This document shows, in pieces, positions 51,401-64,000 of a stretch of 64,000 nucleotides of DNA. The position numbers were made by a program. This DNA is from Pecten maximus. Lineage: Eukaryota. The stretch covers positions 12,772,001 through 12,836,000 of the forward strand of contig NC_047022.1 in assembly GCF_902652985.1 (NCBI RefSeq), in the 5' to 3' direction. How positions within the stretch are numbered: the first letter of the stretch is position 1; each line of letters begins with the position of its first letter.

Positions 51401-54400
51401 TTAAGTCCAGTTACATATTTTATTTATCAGTTGTCATATTTCTATTTGACAGACCTATGGAAAAAAGTCATGGTACATATTTTATTAATCAGTTGACATA
51501 TTTCTATTTGACAGACCTATGAAAAAAGTCCAGCTACACATTTTATTAATCAGTTGACATATTTCTACTGGACAGACCTATGAAATAAAGTCCAGTTATA
51601 TATTTTATTAATCAGTTGACATATTTCTATTGGACAGACCTATGAAATTAAGTCCAGTTACATATTTTATTTATCAGTTGTCATATTTCTATTTGACAGA
51701 CCTATGAAAAAAGTCATGGTACATATTTTATTAATCAGTTGACATATTTCTATTGGACAGACCTATGAAATTAAGTCCAGCTACATATTTTATTAATCAG
51801 TTGACATATTTATATTTGACAGACCTATGAAAAAAAGTCCAGCTACATATTTTATTAATCAGTTGACATATTCCTCTGAAATTAACTCTAGGTTCATATT
51901 TCATTCGGAACGTAATCGTACTTATTAACAATAATCGAGCTGGCGACATGGTACATTGTATTGAGTATTTTTACGCGGTTACCTTCCTCTACTGGTCGGG
52001 TAGTATCTTGCATAAATATCTAACATTTTTTATTAGACACTAATATAAAAAAGGCTTTAATAACAACACATTAAACAGTCGTTGAAGCTCACAAAACGTT
52101 CGATGGCAATTATTTTCTGTTTAGAGGAACCTGTTTTACGTTTAAGGTTCCTGTTTTGAAGAACGAACATGACGGCATATTACATCACTTTGATACTGGG
52201 TATGTATACAGCATCTCATATATGTCATAAAAGATAATGACATTAACAGTTAAAATAATGTTCTCAATGGGAAATATTTTATACATCAATAACATCCGGT
52301 GATGTCCGCTCAACGCATTGCCCAAAAGATACACGAGAAAGTATTATTTAAAAAAAAGATTCAACGATTAAAAAGTAGTTTTCAGCTGCCCACTCATCAT
52401 ACTAATATCTGAAATTAGAATGCGATAGTATGACGTCATTAAGACTTAATATAATTATATATATGTAAATTTATTTTACAACAATTGCGAAACAAGTTAT
52501 ATTAACTTATATTAACCACGCTTGTTGGCCGGGATGGAAACGCGCGAGGGGTCTTATATATCTGTATATATAATTATTTATTCATTTACACAGTTATGAC
52601 CCTTTGAGAATAGAGCTCAACACTGAGGGCCATAACTATTTCATTATACCGAACGAAAATGAACAAATGTAAATTTGCATGATACACTAATCAATATTTT
52701 TCAGAGATCAGCCCGGGCTTGTCGCCCTCGTGCTGCAGTTTTGCAGGAAAATGTCTCAGTTATTGAATGTCACGTGGGAATGTTTAGACCAATCATATCA
52801 GTGTAAATGTAGATGAAAATGAGGTATAATAATTTTTTTTTTCAGTCGCAATGTTGGCCATCCACTGCCGCGGTGGTCAGTCGAACAGTACCCCATACTG
52901 TCGTTTTATCACGCAGGTTAGCTGTCAGAGTAAGGGGAGAAATGTCCTTTGTGGAACTGATGGGAATACTTATCAGAATGAGTAAGTCGTTATACGGGTG
53001 TGCATGTTCAGTCAAGATAAACACAGGTTTGAAAATCAAAATAGATGTTTATTTATATTGGGTGATCGCAACAACTAACAGGATCATAGCTGTAGGAAGA
53101 TGAACGTCAAACATCAAAGCAACAGCAGCCGGAGAGAAAATAAGTTCAGACATGAAAGAAAGGCAAATATAACTATTGTTACTTGGGTTGTTTTGTTCTC
53201 AAAATAGAAGAAAATTCCGGAAACACTGTTTTATAGTCTCCTTCTACGAACTCTATGCATTGTGACATAGCAGGCCCCATGTTTTTACTTTAGGCTCTCT
53301 TCTTAATAGACATCTGACATCAATGACAAGATTTTATTCTCATAAACATAAAAAGTGGAGAGAGTTACATACATTAAACATTGTACAGGACATACTTATG
53401 ATATAATGCAAGGATACACCAGAGAAAGCATGCCCTAGCCTGCGGTGGTGGAATGTGAGGGCCATACAATAAATTCTGCCATCATTATCTGTCGTTGTGC
53501 TAACTCAATGCATACTCTTACGGGATGCGTGGTGCGACAATATATCTAATGAATTGCCCTCGTGTGACTGGCATATTCATATTCTTTCCACATTCTTATT
53601 AAATTATCCACTTTCAGACAATAAATAAATCAATCAAATTATCCACAGGGAGAAATATACCCTCTTTTGATTTGGTCAATTTAGATTTTCCACTTCTAAG
53701 CCCTTGCGTCACTGACGAATACTGGACGGACGAATGAGTTGTATCGCCAGTGACCAATGTCTTCATAAAATCACAAACCTGAAAATGATTTGATGTTGTA
53801 GATGTTCGTTGTTGAAAGCTCATTGTCGTAGATCAACAGTCCAGGTGGCTCACAGAGGGGCGTGTCCGACGCCCTCCTCCGTCCTCACCGGAATGGGCGT
53901 GGTCTCCACCTCCGACATAGCTCTCGATGTATTTTGTCTGGATCTCTTCAAACATTCATGTGACCGTGAAGAACGTCAAAGCGTGTGTGGAACGGACGGA
54001 ACGACATATACCAATCTGTGAGTAGGATATATAATAGTGTAAAGGATTTTTGTTTCCAAAGCGTGTATTTTCATTGTACGAGGATAGTTATAAATAATAT
54101 TACAATAATATGAACAGAGAAAATCTCGACCCATTCTATCATTTCCGCAATTATACATCTTTTTATTAAACCCTTTTGTTAATCCATGATATTTGAACAA
54201 CTGGAAAAAAAACCTTTACAATATACAATTATTGTCCTTGTCCGAGGTGAATAAAGCGTACTAAATTTGCAAATAATAACAATCATTGGTTCAGGGTGTA
54301 GGTATTATACTACCAGTGATATATATACACATACATACTGGTCCTTTAGGATTAAAGAGTATGTTATCAATACTAAAAGTAACACAAGAAAACAGATTTG

Positions 54401-57400
54401 TAACAAAACAAGAACTTGTAATCTATTTTTAGAAATGATTTATGTTACGATATTTGAATATTAAGACCAGGCGTTCCAGAAGGGTAGGCATACTCTGCTT
54501 CATAAACAACACTGTACCTGAGATCGAGGCAAATGCAGACAATGTCGTCTTCTCAAATGATACTAACCCTTTTAGAAATTAGTTTGGTTAAGGAAACGAC
54601 ATGTAGCCGCCACTGTAATGTAGAAATATACCCACTTATGAACTAACTTCAACAGAGCAGCAATCACTGCTATGAGCGGCTTTTGATACGTAAAGATATA
54701 TCTATAATGCTGTATTAAGTATAATGTACAAATATCTCGAACAATTGAATGGTTGGCAAATGATTTCTTTGTAAAAATAAAACAAGTAAAGTCTATAATA
54801 CTCCAGACTTGACATAAATGATTGTATAAAAGATACCAGATATTGGCACATTTAAAACAAATTGCGAGTAAGATACCGTGGAGCCAGAAGGAATCAAAGT
54901 GCATTACACAGCCGGTTCATCCTTCAACGACTCGTCAATAATGCTAAGGGTCTTAAAATTTGACACCTACGTGTAGAATGCGGCGGAACTAGAATTTGTC
55001 AAACTATGTGTCAAAAACCATGTCTGTTGATTGGGAGGTGGACTATCCCTATAATCAGACAAACTGAAGAATGTATTAATATCAGATTTCTAAACAACGT
55101 CAAACACATGTGTATTTACCGAGCCAAGCATACATTCAAATGAAATAAAATACCACATGTATGTCGAAACGTTCTTGATTTTTTTTATAACATATATAAA
55201 CTGTTGTGGTCATCATACTGATGGATATTTACGTTGTCTCTCTAAGTTGATTTAATATTATTGATCTAGAAAACAATACATAGATCATACTACATTAATG
55301 TATTACTAGTATCTTGTTGATAAATTGTTTAAATGAGATTTATTGATAAGATCGTTGGAAAATTAGCCATTTAGGAACACTTAGGACTTCTGTTTTTTTT
55401 TCTTTTAAATTAGCTTAATATGTTGCATTCCGGCAATTAGTAATTATATATGGCCGATTGAAAGCAATGACATGCTGCTGTGTACAATACCAAAAGCTAT
55501 TACAATCTTTCAAAAATATGAGCTTTAATTGATGTATTTGCTCTGACAGATATATCAACGAAACAGGAATGAAAAAAAATGTTCATCAAGCTAACAATAC
55601 TTATTTAATGAAAGTTGAATACATGATACCCGGATAAGTTATGGGTAATCTACCTTATATAAACTGGTTTACATTTCTCGACTCACGTTCGTCACGGTTG
55701 GCTGCCAACACGTTCTTCTACTGTGATTTTACTGTGAAACGCCTACGTTGGGTTTTACCGAAGGCAGAGAAAATCTGGTCACGTATGTTAAAGTACATTA
55801 TTAGTAAACTTTGACCACACGCTGTACTACATGTATTTCTGCAATGGCGACCTTAACCAGATACATGTACCATCAAGTTGAGAATATGTACAATCAACAT
55901 TAAAGGAGATGAAAGGTAATAGCGTTAATCATGTTTTTGTCCTCCAGTGTACGTTTTGTACGACATATTTGCATGTTTATGTATCATTTGTACGTTTTGT
56001 ATGACATATTTGCATGTTTATGTACTCATTTGTACGTTTTGTATGACATATTTGCGTGCCTTTGTACTCATTTGTACGTTTTGTTCGACATATGTACATG
56101 TTTATGTACTCATTTGTACGTTTTGTTCGACATATGTACATGTTTATGTACTCATTTGTACGTTTTGTACGACATATTTGCATGTTTATGTATCATTTGT
56201 ACGTTTTGTATGACATATTTGCATGTTTATGTACTCATTTGTACGTTTTGTACGACATATTTGCATGTTTATGCATCATTTGTACGTTTTGTATGACATA
56301 TTTGCATGTTTATGCATCATTTGTACGTTTTGTATGACATATTTGCATGTTTATGCATCATTTGTACGTTTTGTACGGAATATTTGCATGTTAATGTCCT
56401 CATTTGTACGTTTTGTACGACATATTTGCATGTTAATGTACTCATTTGTACGTTTTGTACGACACATTTGCATGTTTATGCATCATTTGTACGTTTTGTA
56501 CGACATATTTGCATGTTTATGTCCTCATTTGTACGTTTTGTACGACATATTTGCATGTTTATGTCCTCATTTGTACGTTTTGTACGACATATTTGCATGT
56601 TTATGTCCTCATTTGTACGTTTTGTACGACATATTTGCATGTTTATGTCCTCATTTGTACGTTTTGTACGACTCGTGCATGTTTATGTCCTCATTTGTAC
56701 GTTTTGTACGACTCTTGCATGTTTATGTCCTCATTTGTACGTTTTGTACGACATATTTGCATGTTTATGTCCTCATTTGTACGTTTTGTACGACATATTT
56801 GCATGTTAATGTACTCATTTGTACGTTTTGTACGACACATTTGCATGTTTATGCATCATTTGTACGTTTTGTATGACATATTTGTATGTTTATGTACTCA
56901 TTTGTACGTTTTGTATGACAAATTTGCATGTTTATGCATCATTTGTACGTTTTGTACGATACATTTGCATGTTTATGCATCATTTGTACGTTTTGTACGA
57001 CATATTTGTATGTTTATGTACTCATTTGTACGTTTTGTATGACATATTTGTATGTTTATGTCCTCATTTGTACGTTTTGTACGACATATTTTCATGTTTA
57101 TGCATCATTTGTACGTTTTGTATGACATATTTGTATGTTTATGTACTCATTTGTACGTTTTGTATGACAAATTTGCATGTTTATGCATCATTTGTACGTT
57201 TTGTACGATACATTTGCATGTTTATGCATCATTTGTACGTTTTGTACGACATATTTGTATGTTTATGTACTCATTTGTACGTTTTGTATGACATATTTGT
57301 ATGTTTATGTCCTCATTTGTACGTTTTGTACGACATATTTTCATGTTTATGCATCATTTGTACGTTTTGTACGGAATATTTGCATGTTAATGTACTCATT

Positions 57401-63400: not shown

Positions 63401-64000
63401 CTAAATACATATAATTATCCAAACCACTGTACAGTCAGTCATTGAATGGTAGGCTTTGTCGATACTATTAATATCAATTACGTCATGATTTGTTTTCCCA
63501 TTATATTTTTACTTTCAGGTGTGAGTTTGATAAAAGTAGATGCATGCACAAGGAACTACGAATTGCCAAATTTGGATCTTGTTGATACACATGCTAATAA
63601 ATACTCTCAGTAATGGTACTTTTCTTACGTTTTTTGTAATGAATCATTTAAAACGAAAACACAATACAAAACTAACTAAATATGAATGAAAAAAATACCT
63701 ATTCACTCCCTTTGGGTAAGATTCTTCAGCTGTCAAATATTAGGCTTGCTGAACTTAAGAATCCCCCTCGGCTTGAGATTCCCGGCCTCATCCCCAAGAC
63801 GCTGCTGTTTTTACCTGACGATATAATATTATACCTAACTTGGGACAGTTGACTTACCTAACAAAATGCTGACAGTGGATTTACCTGACGACATAAACAT
63901 AGGATTATACCTTTCGATATATTGACAATGGATGGTACTTGTCGACATGTAATGGGTTATACCTGACGACATAGACAAAGGATTTTACCTTAAGATATAT

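What the first reader, a model, noticed from the sequence alone, without database searches (positions are those of the whole stretch)
54018..63518. cGAS-like receptor nested on the same strand inside a Kazal gene intron
Seen: Kazal B exon 3 ends mid-domain (TYTN-L, phase 2). The completing exon, homologous to the last exon of paralog A, lies 9.5 kb downstream at 63519, and I saw no nearer substitute. The intron between contains an intact 681-aa Mab-21/cGLR ORF with its own acceptor (57957) and AATAAA (60126) in the same orientation. The matching intron of paralog A (42703-45057) has no such gene. Known: nested genes are mostly antisense, and bivalve cGLRs are an expanded immune family. Inference: an insertion after the Kazal duplication. 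Host transcripts must skip the nested acceptor and polyA site, so expression of the sensor and of the secreted inhibitor may be coupled or mutually exclusive.
Basis: partly seen in the sequence, partly recalled or inferred. Interest (0 to 1): 0.72.

Follow-up and report, generated by a model that had tools for sequence, protein, structure and literature searches.

The report
Immune sensor gene inside inhibitor-gene intron
An intact mollusc-type cGAS-like (Mab-21) gene sits, in the same orientation, inside the 9.5-kb last intron of a small two-domain Kazal gene; this is a real but fairly ordinary nested-gene arrangement.

Summary
Kazal B is a 4-exon gene on the + strand. Its exon 3 ends at 54017, in phase 2, in the middle of the second Kazal domain. 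The only exon in the window that can complete that domain on the + strand starts at 63519. The 9,501-nt intron between them holds one uninterrupted 681-codon ORF (57966-60011, +). This ORF scores above Pfam's cut-offs for Mab-21 and Mab-21_C, and its best solved relatives are a cGAS-like receptor and cGAS.

Paralog A has the same exon plan and the same intron phases (1, 2, 2). It lies on the minus strand, head-to-head with B. Its matching intron is 2,355 nt and empty.

- The two paralogs share no intron DNA, so "insertion after the duplication" cannot be polarised.
- No retrocopy or transposon ends were found.
- AATAAA is common here: 9 on the + strand of the intron.
- In mammals the antisense bias of nested genes is slight.
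- No transcript data could be consulted, so coupling of expression is speculation.
- The catalytic acids seem present, but the published cGLR motif is not matched strictly. Both structure models failed.

Verdict: a new member of a known kind, of modest interest.

The parts
52169..52199 (+). Kazal B exon 1 coding part: MTAYYITLIL plus 1 left-over base (phase 1), donor GTATGT
   Evidence: Read and verified. Together with the start of exon 2 it reads as a hydrophobic signal-peptide-like N-terminus. That is my reading; no signal-peptide predictor was run.
52846..52981 (+). Kazal B exon 2: end of the signal peptide and N-terminal half of Kazal domain 1 (...CGTDGNTYQN). Ends in phase 2, donor GTAAGT.
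   Evidence: Pfam Kazal_1 on this exon alone gives E 0.02, below the cut-off.
53802..54017 (+). Kazal B exon 3: C-terminal half of domain 1, a linker, and the N-terminal half of domain 2 (...CGTDGTTYTN). Ends in phase 2, donor GTGAGT at 54018.
   Evidence: Pfam Kazal_2 scores 24.5 bits against a 22.8-bit cut-off.
54018..63518 (+). Kazal B intron 3, 9,501 nt. It holds the nested gene, three tandem arrays and a SINE.
   Evidence: Make-up: arrays 3,513 nt, cGLR unit 2,930 nt, SINE 217 nt, rest 2,841 nt.
55930..57487 (.). Tandem array of a 42-nt unit, about 37 copies, upstream of the nested gene
57956..57957 (+). Acceptor-like AG (TTATTCAG|AT) 9 nt before the ATG at 57966. Its use is unproven. An alternative in-frame ATG lies at 57900.
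   Evidence: It has 11 of 20 pyrimidines upstream, within the range of 9-19 of 20 seen at the six Kazal acceptors.
57966..60011 (+). Single-exon ORF of 681 aa plus stop. Residues 1 to about 345 are a Mab-21/cGLR-type nucleotidyltransferase core. Residues about 361-681 are a helical, weakly TPR-like region specific to molluscs.
60126..60131 (+). AATAAA 115 nt after the stop: a candidate poly(A) signal of the nested gene
   Evidence: The hexamer is common in this sequence.
60418..61903 (.). Tandem array of a 21-nt unit, about 69 copies, downstream of the nested gene
62099..62567 (.). Tandem array of a 40-nt unit, about 9 copies
63089..63305 (+). tRNA-derived SINE-like dispersed repeat inside the intron, about 210 nt before the acceptor
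   Evidence: It is 82% identical over 225 nt to 21168-21371.
63519..63585 (+). Kazal B exon 4 coding part: completes domain 2 (CEFDKSRCMHKELRIAKFGSC) and ends in a TGA stop. AATAAA follows at 63596-63601.
   Evidence: The HMM hit has E 3.8e-14. It is 48% identical to the last exon of A.
42618..47147 (-). Kazal paralog A on the minus strand, with coding exons 47147-47108, 46396-46273, 45264-45058 and 42702-42618. The intron matching B's intron 3 is 42703-45057 (2,355 nt) and is empty.
   Evidence: Pfam Kazal_1 scores 27.4 bits on exon 3.

Best explanation
Two separate protein-coding genes share this stretch of the + strand.

The host, Kazal B, has 4 exons and a coding sequence of 450 nt. It encodes a small, probably secreted protein with two Kazal domains of the follistatin/agrin spacing (C-x6-C). 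Each domain is split by a phase-2 intron after the TYxN motif. Its last intron has grown to 9.5 kb.

Inside that intron lies an intact gene with an intronless coding sequence. It belongs to the mollusc-expanded Mab-21/cGAS-like receptor family and carries a C-terminal helical, weakly TPR-like extension.

Most likely the nested gene is an independent transcription unit: it has its own start in the roughly 480 nt between the 42-nt array and the ATG, and it ends after AATAAA at 60126. Most likely it encodes a ligand-regulated nucleotidyltransferase that makes a nucleotide second messenger. The near-neutral pI suggests that long nucleic acid is not its ligand.

The host is still made by splicing 54017 to 63519 across the nested gene. 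The arrangement most likely arose in the B lineage by gain of the cGLR segment together with array expansions and a SINE insertion. Without these additions the intron would be about 2.8 kb, close to the 2.4 kb of A.

Shown: the ORF, its family, the exon-intron logic of both Kazal genes, and the content of the intron. Inferred: transcription of both genes, the promoter, catalytic activity, and the direction of the change.
For: Nested ORF. It has 716 open codons. It scores above Pfam's cut-offs for Mab-21 and Mab-21_C. 43 solved chains match at E <= 1, led by a cGLR and cGAS. Atlas look-alikes are mollusc Mab-21 clusters of 695-802 aa, score 0.98. GGS at 54-56, D67-x-D69 and D176 sit in the order expected of the Pol-beta NTase motif. 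The GS motif at residue 55 suggests that the core starts at the first Met, which would make an upstream coding exon unnecessary; this comparison with cGAS numbering is recalled. The ORF has 42% GC against 31-33% in its flanks.

Host junction. Phase 2 meets phase 2. The domain is completed with its 3 missing cysteines. A stop and then AATAAA 11 nt later follow. The coding total is 450 nt. The exon plan and phases are the same as in A. All 6 donors read GTRNGT and all 6 acceptors read YAG. No other completing exon exists: 4 of 2,868 pieces hit, and all 4 are accounted for.

Intron make-up is given.
Against: No transcript evidence of any kind was available.

The strict cGLR active-site expression of Li et al. 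is not matched. The protein has YGGS where the motif asks for h[QT]GS. The residue after the second acid is R, not hydrophobic. The spacing to the third acid is 104 residues, not 50-90.

The first 175 residues alone find nothing among solved structures (0 hits at E <= 10). In Pfam they give only RlaP at E 0.19.

Both AlphaFold models are unusable, with pLDDT 34.5 and 35.4.

The pI of 6.7-6.8 is below the >8.5 that Li et al. report for dsDNA- and dsRNA-sensing cGLRs.

The segment is bounded by tandem arrays on both sides, which is where assemblies are weakest.

The direction of change, gain in B or loss in A, is not polarised.
Confidence: 0.68

Rival explanations
1. The host gene is effectively broken. 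Growth of intron 3 and the same-strand gene inside it make Kazal B transcripts end early or retain the intron. The product is then a one-and-a-half-domain protein, and exon 4 is a stranded relic.
For: Reading through the donor at 54018 meets a stop after one more codon (...TYTNL*). There are 9 AATAAA on the + strand inside the intron. An acceptor-like site at 57957 could capture host transcripts; from exon 2 or exon 3 (phase 2) that frame stops after 7 codons. Premature host polyadenylation upstream of nested genes is documented in mammals (passages of PMC11694760).
Against: Exon 4 is still perfect. It has a 16-of-20 pyrimidine tract before CAG, all three cysteines, a stop and an adjacent AATAAA. 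This is so even though the paralogs are old, at 34-48% identity. A stranded exon would be expected to decay.
Confidence: 0.15
2. Assembly artefact: the 2.9-kb cGLR segment was placed between two arrays by a wrong join and does not lie in this intron.
For: The segment 57488-60417 is bounded on both sides by tandem arrays of 1.5 kb. No unique sequence links it to the Kazal exons.
Against: The window has no N. The two arrays are of different, unrelated units (42 nt and 21 nt), so one collapse cannot explain both joins. The arrays are short enough for long reads to span; that last point is an inference.
Confidence: 0.06
3. The nested ORF encodes a Mab-21-fold protein that is not a signalling enzyme. 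It would be a scaffold or adaptor that works through its C-terminal helical region, as has been argued for Mab21L1/2.
For: The strict active-site expression is not matched. The N-terminal half of the core is too divergent to align. The pI is neutral. There is a 320-residue C-terminal extension with one TPR-like repeat (Pfam TPR_12 E 9.4e-5, below the cut-off; CDC23 E 0.69).
Against: GGS, DxD and the third Asp are all present in the right order. Li et al. report that some cGLRs with predicted complete active sites carry TPR modules.
Confidence: 0.25

Closest known systems
Animal cGAS-like receptors (cGLRs), in particular the bivalve radiation and the minority with appended TPR modules (Li et al. 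2023, PMC9980059; passages read)
   Same: It has the Mab-21 NTase core and helix bundle. Its look-alike clusters are molluscan and of similar length. It has an extra C-terminal helical, TPR-like region.
   Different: The motif deviates: YGGS, R after the second acid, and a 104-residue spacing. The pI is neutral. Structural homology could not be shown. Activity and ligand are unknown.
Host/nested gene pairs of metazoan genomes (Montibus et al. 2024, PMC11694760, passages read; Kaer et al. 2011, PMC3192792, listing and passages)
   Same: A complete gene lies inside a long intron of another gene. There is scope for interference through premature polyadenylation or intron retention.
   Different: Here the nested gene is an innate-immune sensor candidate and the host is a small secreted-inhibitor-type gene. 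The nested unit is flanked by satellites. No expression data exist.
Two-domain Kazal proteins with intradomain introns. I recall from memory, not from any call, that the ovomucoid/SPINK gene plan has introns within domains.
   Same: Each domain has six cysteines and is split by an intron after the G-x-T-Y-x-N motif.
   Different: The C4-x6-C5 spacing is of the follistatin/agrin type (recalled). Protease inhibition has not been shown.

Membership tests
Pfam Mab-21 (PF03281) plus Mab-21_C (PF20266) | Scores above the curated gathering cut-offs | tested here: met
   Scores are 37.9 and 52.7 bits against cut-offs of 24.1 and 24.1. The Mab-21 match covers only profile positions 121-196 of 197.
cGLR (criteria of Li et al. 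2023) | Active-site motif h[QT]GS X8-20 [DE]h[DE]h X50-90 h[DE]h | tested here: inconclusive
   The protein has Y-G-G-S (53-56), then 10 residues, then D67-Y-D69-R, then 104 residues, then I-D176-L. D176 falls in the column of the VD motif of cGAS and cGLR1 in the alignments. All three acids are present, but 3 details of the expression are not matched.
cGLR (criteria of Li et al. 2023) | [quoted passage not shown] | tested here: inconclusive
   Residues 170-351 align to cGAS and cGLR1. Residues 1-175 alone give 0 solved-structure hits and only RlaP at E 0.19 over the GS...DxD stretch.
cGLR (criteria of Li et al. 2023) | Predicted structural homology to known cGLR or CD-NTase enzymes | tested here: inconclusive
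   Single-sequence AlphaFold2 gave pLDDT 34.5 for the full length and 35.4 for residues 1-360. No fold search was run on such models.
cGLR | Ligand-activated synthesis of a nucleotide second messenger | not testable with these tools
   This needs biochemistry.
Kazal domain | Six-cysteine pattern with the C-G-x-D/N-G-x-T-Y core, and profile matches | tested here: met
   By reading, each gene gives two full six-Cys domains once its exons are taken in order. Exon by exon, B exon 3 scores Kazal_2 24.5 bits (cut-off 22.8) and A exon 3 scores Kazal_1 27.4 bits (cut-off 21). Of 6 exons tested, 2 passed a cut-off, 3 gave weak Kazal hits and 1 gave none. The joined protein was not searched.
Host/nested gene pair | The nested gene lies wholly within one intron of a host whose flanking exons are spliced together | not testable with these tools
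   The geometry and the splice logic are met in silico. The junction itself needs cDNA.
Processed retrocopy | Intronless coding sequence, a poly(A) remnant and target-site duplications | tested here: not met
   The coding sequence is intronless. There is no A-run after AATAAA and no flanking direct repeats other than the tandem arrays. An old retrocopy is not excluded.
Gene carried by a transposon | Terminal inverted or long terminal repeats, or transposon proteins nearby | tested here: not met
   There are 0 inverted repeat pairs in 53500-64000. 0 of 10 intron ORFs gave a significant Pfam domain.

The most novel reading that the evidence does not exclude
The cGLR exon may have no promoter of its own and may be an alternative 3' terminal exon of the Kazal B transcription unit.

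Kazal B exon 1 ends in phase 1. By my reading, the acceptor at 57957 is in frame with the cGLR ORF for a phase-1 upstream exon. Splicing exon 1 directly to 57958 would therefore put the first ten, hydrophobic residues of the Kazal signal peptide in front of the sensor. Splicing from exon 2 or exon 3 instead runs into stops.

One promoter would then choose, by splicing and polyadenylation, between a secreted inhibitor and a sensor with a membrane- or secretion-biased tag. The frame match alone has a 1-in-3 chance.
Probability: 0.05. Interest if true: 0.6.

Novelty: new member of a known kind. Interest (0 to 1): 0.27.

Why it matters
If both genes are expressed, this is a compact natural case of a same-strand nested pair in which both partners are immune-related candidates. 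It could be used to ask whether transcription of a nested sensor truncates its host by early polyadenylation. It also shows how members of the hugely expanded mollusc cGLR family spread into satellite-rich introns. Nested genes are common, and bivalve genomes hold hundreds of cGLRs, so the arrangement alone does not change any current view.

Tried and rejected
- Structure. AlphaFold2 without an alignment gave models of pLDDT 34.5 for the whole protein and 35.4 for residues 1-360. They are useless, so no fold search was run.
- N-terminal 175 residues alone. They gave no solved relative.
- C-terminal 321 residues. They gave only sub-threshold TPR hits and unnamed mollusc clusters.
- Insertion boundaries. 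blastn of the A region against the B region found only the 28-nt satellite, in 30 of 30 rows.
- Transposon ends and genes. None were found.
- Rfam on 40000-64000 and ARAGORN on the whole window. Each gave 0 hits.
- A possible Kazal relic on the minus strand at 61876-61947 (E 0.07). It has no cysteines and is Y-rich array edge, so I rejected it.
- A candidate mini-intron donor near 57875. The site is weak and was not pursued.
- Literature. Searches for 'nested gene' with 'Kazal' (4 papers) and with 'cGAS-like' (3 papers) listed nothing on such a pair, judging by titles and abstracts only.
- Not done. The genome-contig scan holds only bacteria and archaea, so I did not use it.

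
Full report
**What is there: the nested ORF.** The window is AT-rich and full of tandem arrays. Among stop-to-stop frames of 130 aa or more, the only long one that is not read through a tandem array or the SINE beside one is 57861-60011 on the + strand (34 frames listed). Counted from the ATG at 57966 it gives 681 aa, and the stop TAA is at 60009-60011. 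The string TTATTCAG ends at 57957, 9 nt before that ATG, and AATAAA lies at 60126-60131. The acceptor, and with it the exact start, is therefore a model.

**What the ORF encodes.**
- Pfam gives Mab-21_C (52.7 bits, residues 262-340) and Mab-21 (37.9 bits, residues 172-246). Both are above the 24.1-bit cut-offs.
- Against solved structures, 43 distinct chains match at E <= 1. The best is 8gjy_A, 'cGAS-like receptor 1' (9.4e-14). Mouse and human cGAS follow at about 5e-10 to 1e-8, always over residues 170-351.
- The Atlas look-alikes are mollusc clusters of 695-802 aa that carry Mab-21_C (score 0.98).
- The first 175 residues are too divergent to align alone: 0 solved hits at E <= 10, and only RlaP, a Pol-beta-family NTase, at E 0.19 over residues 49-73.
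- That stretch reads Y-G-G-S (53-56), ten residues, then D-S-D-Y-D (65-69). D176 falls in the VD column of cGAS and cGLR1.
- The three acids and the GS loop are thus present and in the right order. The expression that Li et al. used to define cGLRs (passages of PMC9980059) is still not matched in three details: G in place of Q/T, R after the second acid, and 104 rather than 50-90 residues before the third acid.
- The pI is 6.7-6.8. Li et al. report values above 8.5 for the dsDNA- and dsRNA-sensing enzymes.
- Residues 361-681 are helical in both poor models. They carry one TPR-like repeat below Pfam's cut-off (TPR_12 E 9.4e-5; CDC23 E 0.69). They resemble only unnamed mollusc clusters. Li et al. 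state that a minority of cGLRs carry TPR or ankyrin modules.
- Single-sequence AlphaFold2 failed twice, with pLDDT 34.5 and 35.4. The structural criterion is therefore open, and no fold search was run.

**The host gene, Kazal B.** By reading, and checked in a script, Kazal B has four coding exons on the + strand.

| Exon | Coordinates | Content | End |
|---|---|---|---|
| 1 | 52169-52199 | MTAYYITLIL | phase 1, donor GTATGT |
| 2 | 52846-52981 | ...CGTDGNTYQN | phase 2, donor GTAAGT |
| 3 | 53802-54017 | completes domain 1 and opens domain 2, ...CGTDGTTYTN | phase 2, donor GTGAGT |
| 4 | 63519-63585 | CEFDKSRCMHKELRIAKFGSC | stop; AATAAA at 63596 |

The four parts add up to 450 nt.

**Paralog A.** It has the same plan on the MINUS strand: 47147-47108, 46396-46273, 45264-45058 and 42702-42618. 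These add up to 456 nt, with phases 1, 2 and 2. The two genes lie head-to-head, with a 28-nt and a 62-nt array between them. All six donors read GTRNGT and all six acceptors read YAG. Both last exons begin G|TGTGA.

**Profile support for Kazal.** B exon 3 passes Kazal_2 (24.5 bits against 22.8). A exon 3 passes Kazal_1 (27.4 bits against 21). Three other exons give weak Kazal hits, and the 21-residue B exon 4 gives none (6 exons tested).

**Is 63519 really the partner of 54017?**
- A pattern scan finds four C-terminal half-domains in the window, and only one of them is on the + strand beyond 54018.
- An HMM of those four, run on all 2,868 six-frame pieces of 15 aa or more, hits only these four (E 3.8e-14 to 1.4e-11). 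The next hit has E 0.07, is on the wrong strand and has no cysteines.
- The phases match, the missing three cysteines are supplied, and the frame closes with a stop.
- Exon 4 of B is 48% identical to exon 4 of A (10 of 21 residues).

In silico the junction is as well supported as it can be. Only cDNA can prove it.

**What else is in the intron.** Of its 9,501 nt, three arrays take 3,513 nt: 42-nt units at 55930-57487, 21-nt units at 60418-61903 and 40-nt units at 62099-62567. The cGLR unit between the first two arrays takes 2,930 nt. A tRNA-derived SINE-like repeat at 63089-63305 takes 217 nt. The rest is 2,841 nt, which is close to the 2,355 nt of A's intron. Ten further intron ORFs of 58-114 aa gave no significant Pfam domain (0 of 10). 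There are no inverted repeats and no flanking direct repeats other than the arrays. There is no RNA family, no tRNA gene and no second Mab-21 copy anywhere in the window.

**Origin.** A and B share no nucleotide similarity except the satellite that my query happened to include (30 of 30 rows). Their proteins are 34% (exon 3), 43% (part of exon 2) and 48% (exon 4) identical. The duplication is therefore old and the introns have turned over completely. There are no boundaries to read and no outgroup. Gain in B is the economical reading, but it has not been shown. The marks of a recent retrocopy (an A-run, target-site duplications) and of a transposon are absent.

**How it probably works.** I take the two as independent genes. 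The sensor has a single coding exon. Its GS loop at residue 55 lies about as far from the N-terminus as in the cGAS core, which suggests that no upstream coding exon is needed; that cGAS numbering is recalled, not taken from a call. Host transcripts have to splice across it. If host exon 2 or exon 3 were spliced to 57958, the frame would stop after seven codons. If the donor at 54018 were ignored, the frame would stop after one codon. Interference by early polyadenylation is known for mammalian pairs (passages). Here, however, the host must in any case pass 9 AATAAA hexamers on the + strand of the intron, and the hexamer occurs 144 times in the window against 112 expected. The site at 60126 therefore carries little weight as evidence.

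**One curiosity.** Exon 1 of Kazal B ends in phase 1, and a phase-1 exon spliced to 57958 is in frame with the cGLR ORF (my reading). This has a 1-in-3 chance. I keep it only as the boldest reading.

**Comparison with what is known.**
- Li et al. report more than 200 cGLRs in some bivalve genomes.
- Montibus et al. report that host/nested pairs involve over a tenth of human and mouse genes, with only a slight excess of opposite orientation.
- My searches for 'nested gene' with 'Kazal' (4 papers) and with 'cGAS-like' (3 papers) listed nothing on such a pair, judging by titles and abstracts only.
- The supplementary tables of Li et al., which might list this class of TPR-bearing cGLR, were closed.

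**What stayed unchecked.** The genome collection on offer holds only bacteria and archaea, so I did not use it.

**Verdict.** This is a new member of a known kind, of modest interest.

Noticed in passing
window 42618-47147 (-) and 52169-63585 (+): The two Kazal paralogs lie head-to-head (divergent). Their 5' ends are about 5 kb apart, separated by a 28-nt array (48337-51065, about 97 copies) and a 62-nt array (51289-51872).
   Followed up: partly
window 63089-63305, 21168-21371, 27909-27967: A dispersed repeat has a tRNA-like head (box A- and box B-like strings) and a conserved tail that ends in an (AAAC)n-like run. It is probably a tRNA-derived SINE. Two of the three copies lie next to tandem arrays. 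ARAGORN calls no tRNA gene in the window.
   Followed up: partly
window 61926-61957 and 26403-26434 (opposite strands): A 32-nt match of 94% identity lies at the edges of two different tandem arrays. It may be a shared array flank, which would hint at element-borne arrays.
   Followed up: no
window 1-2300, about 18000-21100, 26413-27762, 31878-38812: There are further long tandem arrays, including 6.9 kb of a 48-nt unit, with strong GC skew. A large share of the 64 kb is satellite.
   Followed up: no
window about 60079-60098 and about 60161-60180: A direct repeat of about 20 nt (TGTTGTTTAAAAGTATATAA) brackets the AATAAA at 60126 in the presumed 3' UTR of the nested gene. I saw it by eye in the printed sequence.
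   Followed up: no
window 52199 / 57958: Kazal B exon 1 ends in phase 1, and the acceptor-like site before the cGLR start is in frame for a phase-1 exon. Exons 2 and 3 (phase 2) are not in frame.
   Followed up: partly
window 57783-57790: A TATATAA string lies about 180 nt upstream of the cGLR ATG. Two short upstream ORFs (ATG at about 57819 and 57857) lie between it and the start. This was read by eye, and no eukaryotic promoter tool was available.
   Followed up: no
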